A stretch of 64,000 nt of DNA. Origin: an uncultured delta proteobacterium. Lineage in GTDB: Bacteria; Myxococcota_A; Polyangia; Polyangiales; Houyiibacteriaceae. Made by a program: the position numbers. Positions 21,001-30,000 of the stretch are shown here, piece by piece. The stretch covers positions 160,001-224,000 of the forward strand of contig CAVOVB010000003.1 of the NCBI GenBank assembly GCA_963699755.1, in the 5' to 3' direction. Every line of letters begins with the position of its first letter. The first letter of the stretch is position 1.

Positions 21001-24000
21001 CTTCGGGCGCGATCGACCTCGTGCTCGCGGCGCACTTGAGCTCATCAGAAGGGCTTCGCCGCGAGACACTTCTGACCGACGACTACGTCTGTCTCGTTCG
21101 TCGCGGGCATCCATTGGCGCGTCGCAAGCGAGTCCGCATCGACGACTACGCGGCGCACGGTCACCTGGCCTACACGCCGGTGGGCTTCGTGCCGCCTCCC
21201 ATCTCCGAGGCCGTTCCAGGGTTCGCCTCGACCTCGGGCATCCGCGCTTCGGTGCCGTATCTCCTCGCGCTTCCCGAAGTGGTCCGGCGCACCGACCTGG
21301 TGGCCACGGTGCCGAGGCGCTTGCTCTGTGCGCCGATCGATTTCCGCGGCGTCGTAACCCTCGAGGCCCCACGCGAGCTGCCAGCGGTGGTCGATTCACT
21401 CTGGTGGCACCCTCGATTCGACTCCGACCCAGCTCATCAGTGGCTTCGGAAGCGCGTTCACGAGGCTTTGGCTGCTAGCTGATCAGCTCCGCCACCGAAG
21501 CAAGGAGCCCTGGTCGCCGAAGCGGTCGAGATACTCCTGCATCCGCAGCTTTCGCTTCGTATTTTCGGAGCTCATGTAGCGAATCTTGCCGAAAATGGGT
21601 CGCTCCGGGCCCCAAGCGCGATCGTAGCGACCGAGGACCCAGAAGATCCCCGAGTAGCTGTTCGGATCTCGGCCATCGAGGGCGTACCTGTTGTTGAGCT
21701 CGATCATCGCCGCAAGGGCGTCACGCGCGGTCGGCGACCATTCGAGGATCTTCTTTCCCCAGAGCATGCGAAGGTAGTTCTGAAGTCGGCCGGTTTCGCG
21801 AAGCTCGTTTTGCGCGGCGTTCCAGATCGGATCGTGAGTCTCGGACGCGGCGAGCTGTTCGAGAGAGTAGAGATAGGCCCGCTCATCGCTCTCGTGGAGC
21901 TCGAGCGATTCGCGTGCCCAGGCAGGCAAGGACTCATACTGGTCATAGTCCTTCCGGTGAGCGCACATGTTGAAGCCCAGCTCTCGCCAAGTGACCAGCT
22001 CGTCGATGAACGACTCGGCCGTGGAGCTCATCCCCCACCAGCCCTCTCGCGCGCCGTTGACCTTCTTGGAGAGTTGCTCCATCGACCAGCCTTCGTTCTT
22101 GGAAAGCTCGTCGAAGATCTGATGCGTGGAAACATGGCCGAAATGAAGCCAAGGGGAAAGCCCGCTTGCGACCTCTGCGTCAGGGTGGCTGCGCTCTTCT
22201 CCATAGCGGTCGATGTCTCCCGCGAAGAACTCATGTGCCCGCGCCTCGCCCGCTTCGAAGCCACCAACGAGGTCAGCAGTAGGCACATCGTGATCGATGG
22301 GCAGCGACGCCAGCGTTTTTCCAAGCAGCACCTCCTCTGATGCCGGGAGCCAGCTCCGTGCCGCAAGCGCTGCGAGGTCGGCACGGGCCTTCTCGGGAAT
22401 TGGGGTGAGCCCATCCACCGGATCGGCGAGCGGCTGTGTGCCGAGATGCTTCGGGAGCTCGCGTTGGAGGTGGCGCCGGAAATCAAAGGCCCGGCTGAAG
22501 ACCTTGTCGGTCGCCCTCATGGGGAACAGGCCGTTGCTGTCGACGAGCTCAATTCTAGCGTCCAGCTGCGCCGACGCTGCTTCTTGCATTCTTGGGACGA
22601 AGAACGTCGGGTAGTCATCGCTGACGATCAGGCATGCGTTCTGGGCGAGCGCGGCAAGAAGGCCTCGCCCCTCTCCCGCCGTTGCTTCGACATATGGAAA
22701 GTACAAGACGTTCTTCTTGGCGAAGTACGCGGCGTTCGCGCGCATGCCGTCGAGGATGAACTGATGGAACCGATCGCTTGCCCAAGGATAGGCGACGCGA
22801 AGGGCTTCGAGGATGAGGAGCGGCTTACCCAGTGAATCCGCAAGTGAAGCGGCATGTTCCAGAGAGAAGTTCCAGCGCGGCCTGCGAAAGCCAACCATCC
22901 AATAAAGGACGTGGCTGCCCTCCGGTCGTAGGGGCGCCTCATGGAGCACGCGAAGGCGAGCGGGCGGAGCCGGTTTCACGCCGTTTGGGACCCTTTCGCT
23001 ACGCGGTTCATGTCCGGTCTGTGTGCCTACGATTGCAGGCGTCAAGTTGAGGGGCCGCCGCAACGGCTTGACAATTCGCGAATTCCACATAAACAGTCAG
23101 CTCTGATTGTTTCTGAACTCGAGGGACTATGGGCAAAGAGCTGAGTTTTGTCGGTCGTGTGGCGATTGTGACCGGGGCCGGCCAAGGATTGGGCCGCTCG
23201 CATGCACTCGCCTTGGCAGCGCGGGGCGCGAAGGTGGTGGTGAACGATCTGGGTGGATCGATTTCCGGCGAGGGGAAGTCAGCGGAAAGCGCCGACCTGG
23301 TCGTGAACGAGATCAAGAAGGCCGGCGGCGAAGCGGTCGCCAACTACGACTCCGTCGAAGACGGCGACATGATCGTCCAGACCGCGATGGACACCTGGGG
23401 GCGCGTCGACATCCTGATCAACAACGCCGGTATCCTTCGCGACAAATCGTTCAAGAACATGACCGACGCCGATTGGGACATCATCTTCCGCGTCCACAAC
23501 TATGGTGCATACAAGGTGACCAGGGCAGCCTGGCCGATCATGACCGAGCAGGGCTACGGCCGCGTGCTCTTCACGACCTCTTCGGCGGGCCTCTACGGGA
23601 ACTTCGGGCAGACCAACTACGGCTCGGCGAAGCTCAGCCTCGTCGGTTTCGCGAACACCCTGTCGCTCGAAGGGCAGCGCAAGAACGTCTTGGTCAACAC
23701 GATCGCACCGTTCGCGGCATCCCGGCTCACCGAGGGACTGCTTCCTCCGGCGGTCTTCGATTCGCTCAAGCCCGAGTACGTCACCCCGCTCGTGGCATAT
23801 CTGTGCAGCGAGCACAACGAGACGACTGGCGGTGTCTACGAAGTTGGCGGCGGTTTCTACTCGAGCCTTCGCTGGCAGCGAACCAAGGGTAAGCTCTATC
23901 GGCTTGGTCGCGAAGTATCGCCGGAAGACATCGAATCGAGCTGGCATCAAATCAACGACTTCAGCGAGTCCGAGCACATCGGCAGCGTGATGGAGTCGCT

Positions 24001-27000: not shown

Positions 27001-30000
27001 GGCGCCGGATCACCCGTGGAAAGCTTCTCGACGCGACCATCGAGAGCCTGATCGACCTTGGCTACCCGCGAACCACCACCGTCGAGGTCGGCGAACGGGC
27101 AGGGCTCTCGCGAGGAGCGCAGCTTCACCATTTCCCAAGCAGGGCGGACCTCTTAGTCGCCGCCATCGAGCATCTTGCCGACGAGCGCAGCAAGGAATTC
27201 GAGGCAGCGCTCAAGGAACGCCTGGACCAGGGCGATGAACCGATCGACGCCATGGTCGACATGCTCTGGGCGATGTTCTCCGACCCCCTCTACTGGGCGA
27301 CGATCGAGCTGATGGTCGCGGCGCGAACAGACCCGGAGCTCCTCGAAAAGCTGGAGGCGTTCGAGCGCAGCCTTGGTGGGCGAATCTACGCAGCGTTCAA
27401 AGAGCTGACAGGTCGGGGCGACCGCGAGGCTAGGACCGGCGTCGAAATGACGCTCTACTTCATGCGGGGCCTCGCCCTGGAGCGCATCTTTCGCAAGAAG
27501 GACGCGCACTACGGGCAGCTGGTCGAGCGCTGGAAGACGCAGCTACGCGAAATGCTGCGATGAGCGCTAGTCGTACTGGGACAAAAATCTGTAGCCTTGG
27601 CCGGCGCTACGGCGTTTCAGGATTTGAATGTGCTGCACGATATCGGGCCTGTGCAGTAGCAGGTCGGCAAACTGAGCGACCGGCATTCGCAACACCAGGA
27701 CGTCGCTTGCCGCCTGCACGGTGATGAGCGACGGCGCTCGCAAGAGCAGTGATTCCTCACCGATCGCGTGCCCGAGCTCCATTTCCCCGATGCGCGTTCC
27801 ATCGGCCCTCCTACTGACGATGCGACCGTGAAGCGGAAGGTAGAGACCGTCCGCGCGTTTGTTGGCTTCGATGATCTTCGTGCCGATGAGCGCGCGTCGC
27901 ACTTCGAACAAGCAGGCGATCTGGTGCCGGGTGGTCTCGTCGAAGGCGGTGAAGATCGGATTGGTGCGAAGCAGCGAAGCGATGAGGCGGCGACAGAGGA
28001 TCTCGAGAAGCACGTCGCCAAAGGGCGGATGTAGTTCGACCAGCCGATCGAGAAGCGCTTTGTCGATTCTGAGGGTGCGGACGCGGCCGCAAGCGATGAT
28101 GTCTTCGCCGTAGCTCACGTGCGAGAGCAAGCAGGATACGCCTGCGACGTCGCCCTCGCCGAGGAGCATGCTGCGAAGGTCGGTCCCACGTTGTCCAACG
28201 ACGCTGCCCTCGACTATCACATACAGTGCGTCTGCGGCGGTCCCTGCGGTTACCAGGCGTTGTCCGTCCTCCACGTCGACTAAGGTCGAGCCCCTGACCA
28301 GAGCTTCCAGGATGCTTCGTGGAACCTCGGCGAATAGTGGCATCGAGGGGAGCTGCGCAAGCGCTTCAGGACTCGGGCGCAGGCTCACCGGTGACTCCGG
28401 ACTGAGCGGTCGTTGGAGAAGCTCGACGCCGGTCATGTCGATCCGCACGTCCGTTGTCTTCTCGGGCTTGGTGAAGCGACTCTCTTCGGCGGGCGCCCTC
28501 TGATCTCTGATCAGCGGGAGCGCATCGGTGATCAGGCTCTGCGTGTCGGTCGTAGGTTCGTCCGGGTTCAGCGGGTAGCGTTCGTCGGCCGTGACGATGA
28601 CCTTGCGGTTTTCGCGATGGAGCCGGCGCGCAGCTTCGGGGTCTACCCGTTCGAGGACATCGCCTTTGCTCGGGTCGATCGCCAAGATCACTTTGGCCAT
28701 CGCTGCAGCGCGAGCGACGAAGCCCTTGGCTGCATAGAGGTCCACAGCGCGCTCGTAGGCAGCCACGGCATCGGCCTTGCGCCCCATCCGTTGCAGAAGG
28801 TCGCCTCTTCGGTGCGACCAACGCGGCTCATCCTTCAGCTTCTTCTCGATCAGCTCGTAGATATCGAGCGCTTCGTGCAGCCGTTCGGCCTTGAGTGCCT
28901 GACTGAGCTGCGCCCGTAGGTCTACCGGCTTGCTAGGTCGCCTGAACATCCTTCCACCCCCTCGGAAGCAAATCCAAAACTCACCCTAGCGGTTTAATTC
29001 GCCGATCCCAAACCGAACCAAAATTGCCCTCGGAATGGCTTCCATTTACGGCTTGTCGCCGCTCGGGCTGCCGTTGTTCGACCACGGGGCGGGGTCGTGG
29101 GAACGACCGCCGACCTATGCCTAGTCGACCGCCCTCTTGAACAAGCGGAGAAAGCCGACCAGGTCGATCGCACTGCCCTCGAATCTCACGTCGCCGCGCG
29201 CAAAGGCGTCGACCGGGCTACGCAGCCCGAGCATGAGATCGCGCCAGACGGCCGAGTCTGCGGTGATGGTGAGGTCCCGGCCCTCGGGAAGGCCGTCGAT
29301 GAACTCGGCGACACCGCGCCGGATGTGGATTCCGTAGGCTCCATCGACGTCGGGGAAACGGAATCCGACCAGCATCTCCTGGTTGGCGCTCTTCTCGTAG
29401 ATGAGGTTGGCCGGCATCGCCGCGACGAAGCTGCGAATCGGAACCGTGCTGACGAACGAGAGGGCGTTCTCCGGCTTGATCTGATCGTGGATCTCGACTT
29501 TGCCTTCGAGCTCGAGCGCCTGGGTGAGGTAGTAGTTGCGCGCATTGGCGTTGACCTGGTGGCGTCCGAGAGCCCGAAGCGCGTCCGCTTTGACTTGCCG
29601 GGCCGCAGAGGAGCCGGGGTCGAGCCGAATGGAATGGCTCGCGAGCTCTGCCGCCCATGCATGCTGCTCCTCGTCGACCGCCTTGCGCGCAGCCTCTAGC
29701 AGACGGTCCGCGCCTCCCGCGAGCGCCGCCATTGCCTTGGCCCGCTCGTCCGGGCTAGCGGGCTCGAGCGTAGCGGCGTCGCCGTCGAACCATCCAAGGT
29801 AGCCGTCGAAGATTCCGCGCACCGCCCATGCGACCTTGCCGTAGTATTCCTGCAGATAGGGATGCTCCGCCAAGTGCGGCGGGAGCCGAACCAGGGCGAC
29901 TAGCTCATCGGGTTTGAGGCCTCTGTTGATGCCTTGGATCGTCTGGTCGTGCACGAACTGAATCGCGTCGCGATACGCCGTCAGCGTCTGGTACACCTCG

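What a model noticed while it worked through the whole genome (the two positions that open the first line are those of the whole stretch)
23129..27563. Human-type peroxisomal D-bifunctional protein and SCPx thiolase in one bacterial operon
g02841 has the whole domain order of human MFE-2/HSD17B4 (dehydrogenase, hydratase 2, SCP2, plus a second SCP2) and is followed by an SCPx-type thiolase and a TetR regulator. The two enzymes of peroxisomal branched-chain and bile-acid beta-oxidation thus exist as an operon in Myxococcota, as a clade apart from the eukaryotic proteins.
Evidence so far: 45.5% identity over residues 1-731 of the 736-aa human MFE-2 (E 7e-201); thiolase 58-59% to mammalian SCPx. 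In a scan of GTDB genomes the best 45 loci are Myxococcota, deltaproteobacterial or unclassified records; other taxa match mostly the hydratase alone. SCPx lies beside it in 34 of those 45 loci. Quick tree of 67 rows: all 22 Myxococcota-type loci and this protein fall in one 30-row clade (SH-aLRT 99) with no PTS1-bearing row.
(Added by a program. Inside this text positions count along the whole contig: contig position 160,001 is position 1 of the stretch shown here. "Call 12" and the like, gene names such as g00115 and contig names such as C1 are that model's own, and its searches are not shown. The text may have been shortened before it was handed on; [...] marks where a part breaks off. The agent that wrote the report below was given it as the finding of a first reader that could run no searches.)

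Follow-up and report, generated by a model that had tools for sequence, protein, structure and literature searches.

The report
Bacterial operon resembling peroxisomal beta-oxidation enzymes
This bacterium carries a full-length relative of the human peroxisomal fat-breakdown enzyme MFE-2 in an operon with the matching thiolase, a pairing found in scattered bacteria of several groups, which reopens the question of where peroxisomal fatty-acid oxidation came from.

Summary
Window 23129-25723 encodes an intact SDR + hydratase-2 + 2xSCP2 protein (45.7% to fish MFE-2, catalytic residues kept), followed by an SCP2-type thiolase (no SCP2 domain of its own) and a TetR gene. A conserved palindrome (23091-23112), unique in the genome, marks it as a TetR-controlled operon. 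Most likely it performs the last three steps of D-specific beta-oxidation; the substrate is unknown.

The Myxococcota-specific framing fails. The same fusion-plus-thiolase operon occurs in Gammaproteobacteria (28 of 30 such loci), and a second set of fused proteins (Ca. Promineifilum; unnamed proteins with one SCP2) is closer to eukaryotes in all three domains. This thiolase is also not the nearest to animal SCPx: thiolases of unfused TetR-SDR-hydratase-thiolase operons are (71% versus 56%).

The best tree puts eukaryotic MFE-2 as one clade inside fused bacterial proteins (98/99), not with alphaproteobacterial unfused pairs as proposed in 2006. AU tests reject Myxococcota alone as sister but do not reject eukaryote-to-bacterium transfer. 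Databases already label such proteins; ten literature searches found no paper on them. New variant of a known kind.

The parts
23068..23073 (+). TTGACA, -35-like hexamer of the operon promoter
   Evidence: TTGACA at the same distance from the palindrome in 16 of the 17 close relatives shown (in L006 it lies outside the stretch printed); the sigma-70 scan found no full promoter because no consensus -10 follows
23091..23112 (.). 22-bp palindrome (10-bp arms, 9 of 10 pairs, 2-bp spacer): candidate operator of the operon's TetR
   Evidence: only match in the 5.35-Mb genome at up to 3 mismatches; present in 17 of 17 close relatives; in 13 of 13 loci where TetR is the first gene it lies before TetR instead
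23129..25723 (+). MFE-2-like fusion, 864 aa: (3R)-hydroxyacyl-CoA dehydrogenase + enoyl-CoA hydratase 2 + two SCP2 domains; no PTS1 (ends KGLI)
23129..24043 (+). SDR dehydrogenase domain (residues 1-305): TGxxxGxG, D40, NNAG, S151-Y164-K168
   Evidence: triad numbering as in human MFE-2 (PMC3538638, passages)
24044..24946 (+). hydratase 2 double hot-dog domain (residues 306-606): E401, YRLSGDWNPLH with D502 and H507, G525
   Evidence: role of these residues in hydratase 2 recalled, not from a call
25004..25333 (+). first SCP2 domain (internal, repeatable type)
25394..25720 (+). second SCP2 domain (terminal type, a separate subclade from the internal copies)
25751..26929 (+). SCP2-thiolase type 1 (PRK08256), 392 aa, C82, HDCF 291-294, GHP 340-342, no CxGGG, no SCP2 domain
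   Evidence: fingerprints from PMC7682436 (passages)
26943..27563 (+). TetR-family regulator, 206 aa, last gene; a convergent cNMP-binding gene ends 3 nt later

Best explanation
A cytosolic, TetR-autoregulated module for D-specific beta-oxidation. An acyl-CoA dehydrogenase makes a 2-enoyl-CoA (encoded elsewhere here, in the operon in Gammaproteobacteria); hydratase 2 hydrates it to the (3R)-hydroxyacyl-CoA; the NAD+-dependent SDR oxidises it to 3-ketoacyl-CoA; the SCP2-type thiolase cleaves it; the SCP2 repeats bind the hydrophobic tail. It runs beside ordinary L-specific FadB-type enzymes, so it probably serves bulky or 2-methyl-branched chains (sterol side chains, isoprenoids) that those handle poorly. 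Shown: gene order, domains, catalytic residues, operator conservation. Inferred: activities, direction, regulation, substrate. History: the fusion most likely arose in bacteria from adjacent SDR and hydratase genes of a TetR-SDR-hydratase-thiolase operon, first with one SCP2; eukaryotes took MFE-2 from such a fused form before or near LECA; the Myxococcota/Gammaproteobacteria version is a derived branch with multiplied SCP2 domains, a cousin rather than the donor. I put the enzymatic reading at 0.85, the branched/sterol substrate at 0.5, the history at 0.6.
For: Catalytic residues intact. Fusion and thiolase adjacent in 28 of 30 Pseudomonadota-labelled and 27 of 41 Myxococcota/delta/unclassified loci, the rest mostly cut by contig ends. 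Acyl-CoA dehydrogenase directly upstream in 4 of 6 Gammaproteobacteria loci scanned. Operator conserved and moving with TetR. Genome has three long 3HCDH_N proteins (748-823 aa frames), nine KshA_C matches, no PhaC_N. Unfused TetR-SDR-hydratase-thiolase operons in the same order (L075, L080). Tree of 54 rows: eukaryotes one clade 98/99, all fused proteins 95/98, root among fused bacterial rows; tree of 58 rows: 24 of 26 eukaryote-type rows on one side of a 95.5/97 branch.
Against: No biochemical or expression data. Root position weak (66/19); a quick search of the same matrix put the root inside eukaryotes, and AU tests do not reject fused bacteria nested in eukaryotes (p 0.38 and 0.51; 0.32 and 0.32). 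The two long PTS1-bearing rows P0153 and P0158 fall outside the eukaryote clade and were left out. The single-SCP2 proteins P0457, P0465, P0472 are unnamed and assumed bacterial only because they lack PTS1; P0456 groups with Promineifilum. Domain-only trees leave the base unresolved. No acyl-CoA dehydrogenase among the neighbours scanned in 9 Myxococcota-type loci. KshA_C matches do not prove sterol use.
Confidence: 0.6

Rival explanations
1. Same enzymology, but the fused gene came from an early eukaryote into bacteria and was slotted into an existing TetR-thiolase operon, then spread sideways among lipid-eating bacteria.
For: Patchy range: 36 of 401 phylum genomes, 4 of 19 in the genus, 1 of 400 Gammaproteobacteria. 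Root inside eukaryotes (quick trees) and not rejected by AU. In the hydratase-only tree the Promineifilum group sits among protist-type rows (91).
Against: Best careful tree has monophyletic eukaryotes 98/99 inside fused bacteria. Unfused operons of the same gene order exist in bacteria, and SDR-hydratase fusion also happened separately in the outgroup (L076), so fusion in place is easy. Needs loss of PTS1 and replacement inside an operon.
Confidence: 0.25
2. The Myxococcota operon lineage itself (with its Gammaproteobacteria offshoot) is the donor of both MFE-2 and SCPx, in one transfer (the reading implied by the finding).
For: Eukaryotes sister to the Myxococcota+Gammaproteobacteria clade is not rejected (p-AU 0.20, 0.11, 0.19). 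The thiolases nearest to zebrafish SCP2-thiolase come from genomes of the same phylum and nest in the operon-thiolase clade (99). Precedent for Myxococcota genes in LECA (PMC13468126; bioRxiv 10.1101/2025.10.10.681575; passages).
Against: Eukaryotes sister to or inside Myxococcota alone rejected (p-AU 2e-44 and 1e-38, unrefined constrained trees). All 58 SCP2 copies on this side are split from eukaryotic ones (99); identity to eukaryotic SCP2 27-29% for the window, 39-42% for P0457/P0465/P0472. Window thiolase 493 bits against 664 for L080.
Confidence: 0.12
3. The module serves straight or unsaturated long-chain fatty acids, or supplies (R)-3-hydroxyacyl-CoA for storage polymers, and has no link to branched or sterol substrates.
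For: Fungal MFE-2 handles straight chains (recalled). Neighbours include FadL-type transporters (L007, L031) and a fatty-acid desaturase (L005). Human MFE-2 also takes very-long straight chains (PMC3538638, passage).
Against: No PhaC_N match in the genome, with a control genome ringing, and a coupled dehydrogenase and thiolase would consume the R-hydroxy product. Three FadB-type proteins already cover straight chains. Mammalian SCP2-thiolase takes 2-methyl, steroid-bearing substrates (PMC3406046, passage).
Confidence: 0.35

Closest known systems
Animal MFE-2 / D-bifunctional protein (HSD17B4); Drosophila 3oml
   Same: Domain order SDR-hydratase 2-SCP2, 41-46% identity over about 725 residues, same catalytic residues, identical numbering through the dehydrogenase (T15, S151, N158, Y164, K168, R248, W249, R251).
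   Different: Second SCP2 of a distinct subtype (relatives carry 2-4), no PTS1, short dehydrogenase-hydratase linker, bacterial operon; SCP2 domains belong to a separate clade.
Fungal Fox2 and protist MFE-2 forms
   Same: Same two catalytic domains; chytrid and protist forms also end in SCP2, some in two (P0466, P0467).
   Different: Fungal forms have a doubled dehydrogenase and a PTS1.
SCPx / SCP2-thiolase type 1 (PRK08256)
   Same: C82, HDCF, GHP, no CxGGG; above the curated cut-off.
   Different: No fused SCP2. The family is already known in bacteria (PMC7682436, passage) and occurs in 12 of 301 Pseudomonadota genomes, only 2 of which carry the SCP2-bearing fusion; other bacterial members are closer to the animal enzyme.
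Unfused bacterial SDR + MaoC double-hot-dog gene pairs (L073-L084; plasmids of Sphingomonas, Polaromonas, Paraburkholderia, Sphingopyxis)
   Same: Same two activities, same order, often with thiolase, acyl-CoA dehydrogenase and regulator.
   Different: Separate genes, no SCP2, outside the fused clade.
Fused SDR-hydratase proteins of Ca. Promineifilum and unnamed single-SCP2 proteins (P0324, P0456, P0457, P0465, P0472)
   Same: Same fusion, no PTS1, same clade as the window protein and eukaryotes.
   Different: None or one SCP2; no thiolase match in the Promineifilum-type loci L120-L135; closer to eukaryotes.

Membership tests
MFE-2 / D-bifunctional protein | N-terminal SDR of the MFE-2 subfamily with TGxxxGxG, Asp for NAD+, Ser-Tyr-Lys triad and C-terminal subdomain | tested here: met
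   T15-G16-x-G18, D40, S151, Y164, K168, R248, W249, R251
MFE-2 / D-bifunctional protein | Hydratase 2 double hot-dog domain with the YRLSGDxNPLH motif in the same chain | tested here: met
   PF22622 119 bits and PF01575 105 bits; D502, H507, E401, G525; motif recalled
MFE-2 / D-bifunctional protein | C-terminal SCP2 domain (animal form) | tested here: met
   two stretches of PF02036; two rather than one, from a clade separate from eukaryotic copies
MFE-2 / D-bifunctional protein | Common descent of the fused catalytic domains with eukaryotic MFE-2 | tested here: met
   fused clade with eukaryotes 95/98 against unfused and reverse-order outgroups; outgroup split 100/100
MFE-2 / D-bifunctional protein | Peroxisomal targeting signal PTS1 | tested here: not met
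   ends KGLI; expected for a bacterium; so a family member by descent, not a peroxisomal protein
MFE-2 / D-bifunctional protein | R-specific hydration and NAD+-dependent (3R)-dehydrogenation; branched-chain and bile-acid substrates | not testable with these tools
   needs assay
SCP2-thiolase type 1 | Nucleophilic Cys, HDCF in place of NEAF, GHP, no CxGGGxG | tested here: met
   fingerprints from PMC7682436; PRK08256 679.6 bits over cut-off 436
SCPx (full-length) | Thiolase fused to C-terminal SCP2 with PTS1 | tested here: not met
   392 aa, no SCP2 match, ends YRRD
SCPx (full-length) | Nearest bacterial relative of animal SCPx thiolase | tested here: not met
   similarity only: 493 bits against 664 (L080), 644 (L075), 520 (L176), 513.5 (L031); above 469 (L170); no eukaryotic SCPx sequence could be put in a tree
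Operon | Co-directional genes with short gaps, conserved linkage, shared regulatory site | tested here: met
   gaps 27 and 13 nt; linkage; operator
Operon | One transcript across the genes | tested here: inconclusive
   only short contigs of relatives in one RNA run
Peroxisome-like full pathway | Acyl-CoA oxidase as first step | tested here: inconclusive
   no PF01756 match in the genome, but no control genome rang; Gammaproteobacteria operons use an acyl-CoA dehydrogenase

The most novel reading that the evidence does not exclude
Peroxisomal D-specific beta-oxidation came into early eukaryotes ready-made from a non-alphaproteobacterial TetR-MFE-2-thiolase operon family: MFE-2 arrived already fused with one SCP2, and the SCPx thiolase came from the same operon family in the Myxococcota region of the tree (its nearest bacterial matches, 71% identical to zebrafish, lie in unfused operons of this phylum; in Solimonas the thiolase is followed by a free SCP2 gene, the order needed to make SCPx). 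This would overturn the alphaproteobacterial assignment of Fox2/MFE-2 that was used to date peroxisomal beta-oxidation after mitochondria.
Probability: 0.35. Interest if true: 0.75.

Novelty: new variant of a known kind. Interest (0 to 1): 0.5.

Why it matters
Gabaldon et al. 2006 (PMC1472686, passages) listed Fox2/MFE-2 as alphaproteobacterial and SCP2 as unresolved, and used Fox2p to argue that peroxisomal beta-oxidation followed the mitochondrial endosymbiosis. Full-length fused bacterial relatives outside Alphaproteobacteria, with the two alphaproteobacterial unfused pairs sampled here (L164, L167) far out in the outgroup, make that assignment testable again. Cultured carriers (Perlucidibaca piscinae, Solimonas fluminis, Paraperlucidibaca, Polyangium sorediatum, Minicystis rosea) offer a genetic system for what MFE-2 and its SCP2 domains do, including natural variants with 0-4 SCP2 copies. 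It also points to an undescribed D-specific beta-oxidation operon in lipid-degrading bacteria. The chemistry itself is known, and public annotation already gives these proteins the MFE-2 label.

Tried and rejected
Myxococcota-only distribution: rejected. Contamination or mis-binning: rejected. PHA precursor supply: disfavoured. Expression and co-transcription: one RNA run held 8% of the words and gave only short contigs of relatives; no evidence either way. Sigma-70 and terminator scan: nothing above chance. Acyl-CoA oxidase search: uninformative, no control rang. Naming the single-SCP2 proteins: P0456 found nothing in viral contigs and only unfused pairs or lone SDRs on plasmids (15 records, none over 60%); Promineifilum-type metagenome loci are not held as genomes; the 'Pedobacter' genome G1086 drew the same phylum sample as G401, so it is no route to Bacteroidota and its label is doubtful. 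Single-domain trees do not resolve the base. The eukaryote-monophyly test in treekit did not finish and was replaced by my own AU runs; the 'eukaryotes sister to the single-SCP2/Promineifilum group' constraint was tested on the 58-row set (p 0.18, 0.16) but not finished on the 54-row set. A thiolase tree with eukaryotes could not be built: no eukaryotic SCPx sequence was returned by any search. No structure or complex prediction was run. Edqvist and Blomqvist 2006 (SCP-2 fusion and fission) is not held; seen only as cited in PMC2529247; it may bear on the history.

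
Full report
OBSERVATION. Three genes lie on the + strand: 23129-25723 (864 aa, P0001), 25751-26929 (392 aa, P0002), 26943-27563 (206 aa, P0003), 27 and 13 nt apart. P0001 has adh_short, MFE-2_hydrat-2_N, MaoC and two SCP2 stretches. Its best solved relatives are Drosophila MFE-2 (E 2.5e-167), Candida MFE-2, and the rat and human dehydrogenase and human hydratase domains. Against fish MFE-2 it is 45.7% identical over 746 columns, against snail 43.6%, moth 40.7% (names). The dehydrogenase keeps T15, D40, NNAG, S151, Y164, K168, N158, R248, W249 and R251 at the human positions (human numbering from PMC3538638, passages; of the five patient-variant positions only E232 differs). 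The hydratase keeps E401, D502, H507 and G525 (roles recalled). P0002 is an SCP2-thiolase type 1: PRK08256 679.6 bits over a cut-off of 436, C82, HDCF, GHP, no CxGGG (fingerprints in PMC7682436, passages). It lacks an SCP2 domain. P0003 is a TetR protein. GC and GC3 match the window.

OPERON. A 22-bp palindrome at 23091-23112, 17 nt behind TTGACA, is the only match in the genome at up to 3 mismatches. It is present in 17 of 17 close relatives examined. In 13 of 13 fused loci where TetR is the first gene, its core (up to 4 mismatches) lies before TetR instead; by rough calculation about 1 chance match per 100 such stretches is expected. It also appears in unfused L080, not in L075, and in 1 of 10 Gammaproteobacteria stretches. 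This fits a TetR operator. Co-transcription is not shown.

DISTRIBUTION. The GTDB scan confirmed 533 stretches and kept the best 80, as 72 loci. Of these 30 are labelled Pseudomonadota (Perlucidibaca, Paraperlucidibaca, Acinetobacter corruptisaponis, Solimonas, Alcanivorax, Luteimonas, Bermanella and others): 29 have the fusion in one frame and 28 the thiolase behind it. Of 41 Myxococcota, delta or unclassified loci (I placed the 'uncultured proteobacterium' L054 here), 32 have the fusion and 27 also the thiolase; most others end at a contig edge or are frameshifted. One locus labelled Pedobacter has both. Complete proteins carry 2-4 SCP2 copies. In whole genomes the unbroken fusion at 56% or more is in 36 of 401 of the phylum: 27 of 79 in the window's class, 9 of 322 elsewhere, 4 of 19 in its genus; in 1 of 400 Gammaproteobacteria, the centre itself; and in 2 of 301 Pseudomonadota with SCP2, plus one divergent form without. 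Only a few candidates per genome were scored, so these are floors. The same searches show other arrangements: 16 adjacent unfused pairs, two fetched as TetR-SDR-hydratase-thiolase (L075, L080), a separate fusion inside that group (L076), and reverse hydratase-SDR-SCP2 fusions (L086-L088). A second fused group appeared: about 620-aa proteins of Ca. Promineifilum without SCP2 and without a thiolase match in their loci. One search added 722-739-aa proteins with exactly one SCP2 and no PTS1 (P0456, P0457, P0465, P0472), hosts unnamed. Domain order alone therefore proves little.

PHYLOGENY. Rows were chosen by hand from several hundred sequences; eukaryote rows are named for 11 of 26 in the 58-row set, two more come from EukProt, the rest are taken as eukaryotic from PTS1-like ends or grouping. 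Joint dehydrogenase+hydratase matrix, LG+C20 PMSF. With 58 rows (supports read from the unrooted tree): outgroup split 100/100; Myxococcota+Gammaproteobacteria 100/100 on a long stem, nested among the single-SCP2 and Promineifilum rows; 24 of 26 eukaryote-type rows behind a 95.5/97 branch; two long rows (P0153, P0158) drawn to the outgroup (92/94). With 54 rows (nine dropped: P0153, P0158, P0296, P0373, P0430, P0490, L046, L085, L111; five proteobacterial unfused pairs added) the careful tree has eukaryotes monophyletic (98/99), all fused proteins together (95/98), and the root among fused bacterial rows with weak support (66/19); the quick tree of that matrix, 12 log units worse, rooted inside eukaryotes, as did the earlier 68-row quick tree without support. 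AU tests reject eukaryotes sister to or inside Myxococcota alone (p below 1e-37; unrefined trees, 177-180 log units worse). They do not reject eukaryotes sister to all fused bacteria (0.45, 0.42, 0.60), to Myxococcota+Gammaproteobacteria (0.20, 0.11, 0.19), to the single-SCP2/Promineifilum group (0.18, 0.16), or fused bacteria inside eukaryotes (0.38, 0.51, 0.32, 0.32). By identity the Promineifilum protein is closer to fish, snail, chytrid and protist rows than P0001 in both catalytic domains (61-62 against 52-57%; 50-57 against 44-49%). In the SCP2 tree (109 rows, 104 columns) the side holding the window's copies (58 rows) is split from the eukaryotic and single-SCP2 copies at SH-aLRT 99; mean identity to eukaryotic SCP2 is 27-29% for the window, 39-42% for P0457/P0465/P0472 and 32% for P0456. 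Alphaproteobacterial unfused pairs (L164, L167) are far outgroup, though one lone alphaproteobacterial SDR (L168) nests in the Gammaproteobacteria group.

THIOLASE. Scores against zebrafish SCP2-thiolase: window 493 bits (56% by hand count), L031 513.5, L176 520, L170 469, but L080 664 (71% by hand count) and L075 644. In a bacteria-only tree L075, L076 and L080 nest inside the clade of fused-operon thiolases (99). So animal SCPx probably stems from this wider operon family, but not from the window's branch; this rests on similarity, not on a tree with eukaryotes. PRK08256 also occurs without the fusion (12 of 301 Pseudomonadota).

MECHANISM. Most likely steps 2-4 of beta-oxidation through (3R) intermediates. 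Of 125 neighbouring frames picked, 84 were scanned: an acyl-CoA dehydrogenase sits directly upstream in 4 of 6 Gammaproteobacteria loci, completing a cycle; none was seen in 9 Myxococcota-type loci. The genome has three long FadB-type frames, nine KshA_C matches, no PhaC_N. A second, D-specific route with an SCP2-type thiolase suggests bulky or 2-methyl-branched substrates, by analogy with the mammalian enzymes (PMC3406046, PMC3538638, passages). This is inference; bile-acid chemistry is not shown.

WHAT IS KNOWN. Annotation already recognises these proteins: NCBI names a Polyangium sorediatum protein 'peroxisomal multifunctional enzyme type 2', JGI gives the MFE-2 function label, and ESM Atlas clusters carry such names. 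Ten full-text searches (listings and abstract starts) showed no paper on a bacterial full-length MFE-2 or its operon; subscription journals are largely missing. Passages read: PMC3131387 (myxococcal source of mitochondrial beta-oxidation genes; no mention of HSD17B4 or SCP2); PMC1472686 (FOX2 alphaproteobacterial, SCP2 unresolved); PMC13468126 (Myxococcota 3.92% of LECA proteome; in 4 held supplements K12405 and HSD17B4 absent, K08764 and K14729 only in module lists); bioRxiv 10.1101/2025.10.10.681575 (peroxisomal plasmalogen enzymes from Myxococcota); PMC12338589 (no consistent bacterial signal for fatty-acid pathways); PMC2529247, PMC12276699, PMC4678951 (background). Edqvist and Blomqvist 2006 could not be read; a Toxoplasma D-bifunctional protein with two SCP2 domains is recalled only.

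VERDICT. Real, intact and well conserved; a bacterial member of the MFE-2 family by descent, in a regulated operon with an SCP2-type thiolase. It is not Myxococcota-specific and not the nearest bacterial form to either human enzyme. Its value is as the entry point to a wider fused family that questions the alphaproteobacterial origin of peroxisomal MFE-2. New variant of a known kind; interest 0.5.

Noticed in passing
P0456, P0457, P0458, P0465, P0472: Unnamed 722-739-aa proteins with exactly the human layout (SDR-hydratase 2-one SCP2) and no PTS1; closer to eukaryotic MFE-2 than the window protein. Hosts unknown; the best leads for the donor lineage.
   Followed up: partly
L080:2914-4110 (-), L075:6011-7204 (+), L076: Thiolases of unfused TetR-SDR-hydratase-thiolase operons in this phylum reach 644-664 bits (L080 about 71% identity) against zebrafish SCP2-thiolase, far above other bacterial members tested.
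   Followed up: partly
L022, L023, L038, L040, L044 (Solimonas and one unclassified), about 10230-10720 in the full-length loci: A free SCP2 gene follows the thiolase, the order that a thiolase-SCP2 (SCPx) fusion would need; its product ends SKLA, and some fused proteins end SKLI or NKLI, one residue beyond a PTS1-like tripeptide (5 of 85 frames). P0526 in the bacterial clade ends SKL, so PTS1 is an imperfect eukaryote marker.
   Followed up: partly
L086-L088, P0154, P0209: Reverse-order hydratase-SDR-SCP2 fusion followed by a 910-930-aa protein ending in SDR-SCP2 with an unidentified N-terminal 490 residues, then a distant thiolase; the two SCP2 domains in L086 are identical.
   Followed up: no
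L120-L135 (Ca. Promineifilum type): Fused SDR-hydratase 2 without SCP2 standing alone among unrelated genes in Chloroflexota-type contigs.
   Followed up: partly
window 10877-11455 (-) and eight other places in G000: Nine KshA_C (Rieske oxygenase) matches, one in this window, suggesting steroid or aromatic ring catabolism.
   Followed up: no
window 21483-23090 (-): Divergent gene similar to class II photolyase (TIGR00591, 333 bits, below the 550 cut-off), no Pfam match.
   Followed up: no
window 34162-44542 (-): Cluster of a 1663-aa pyruvate:ferredoxin oxidoreductase-like protein with extra ferredoxin domains, FMN-binding, Rnf/Nqr-type membrane and NAD-binding proteins: an anaerobic electron-transfer unit in a Polyangiales-type genome.
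   Followed up: no
L047 / G1086: A genome labelled Pedobacter carries the Moraxellaceae-type operon and draws the same phylum sample as Perlucidibaca, so its label is probably wrong.
   Followed up: yes
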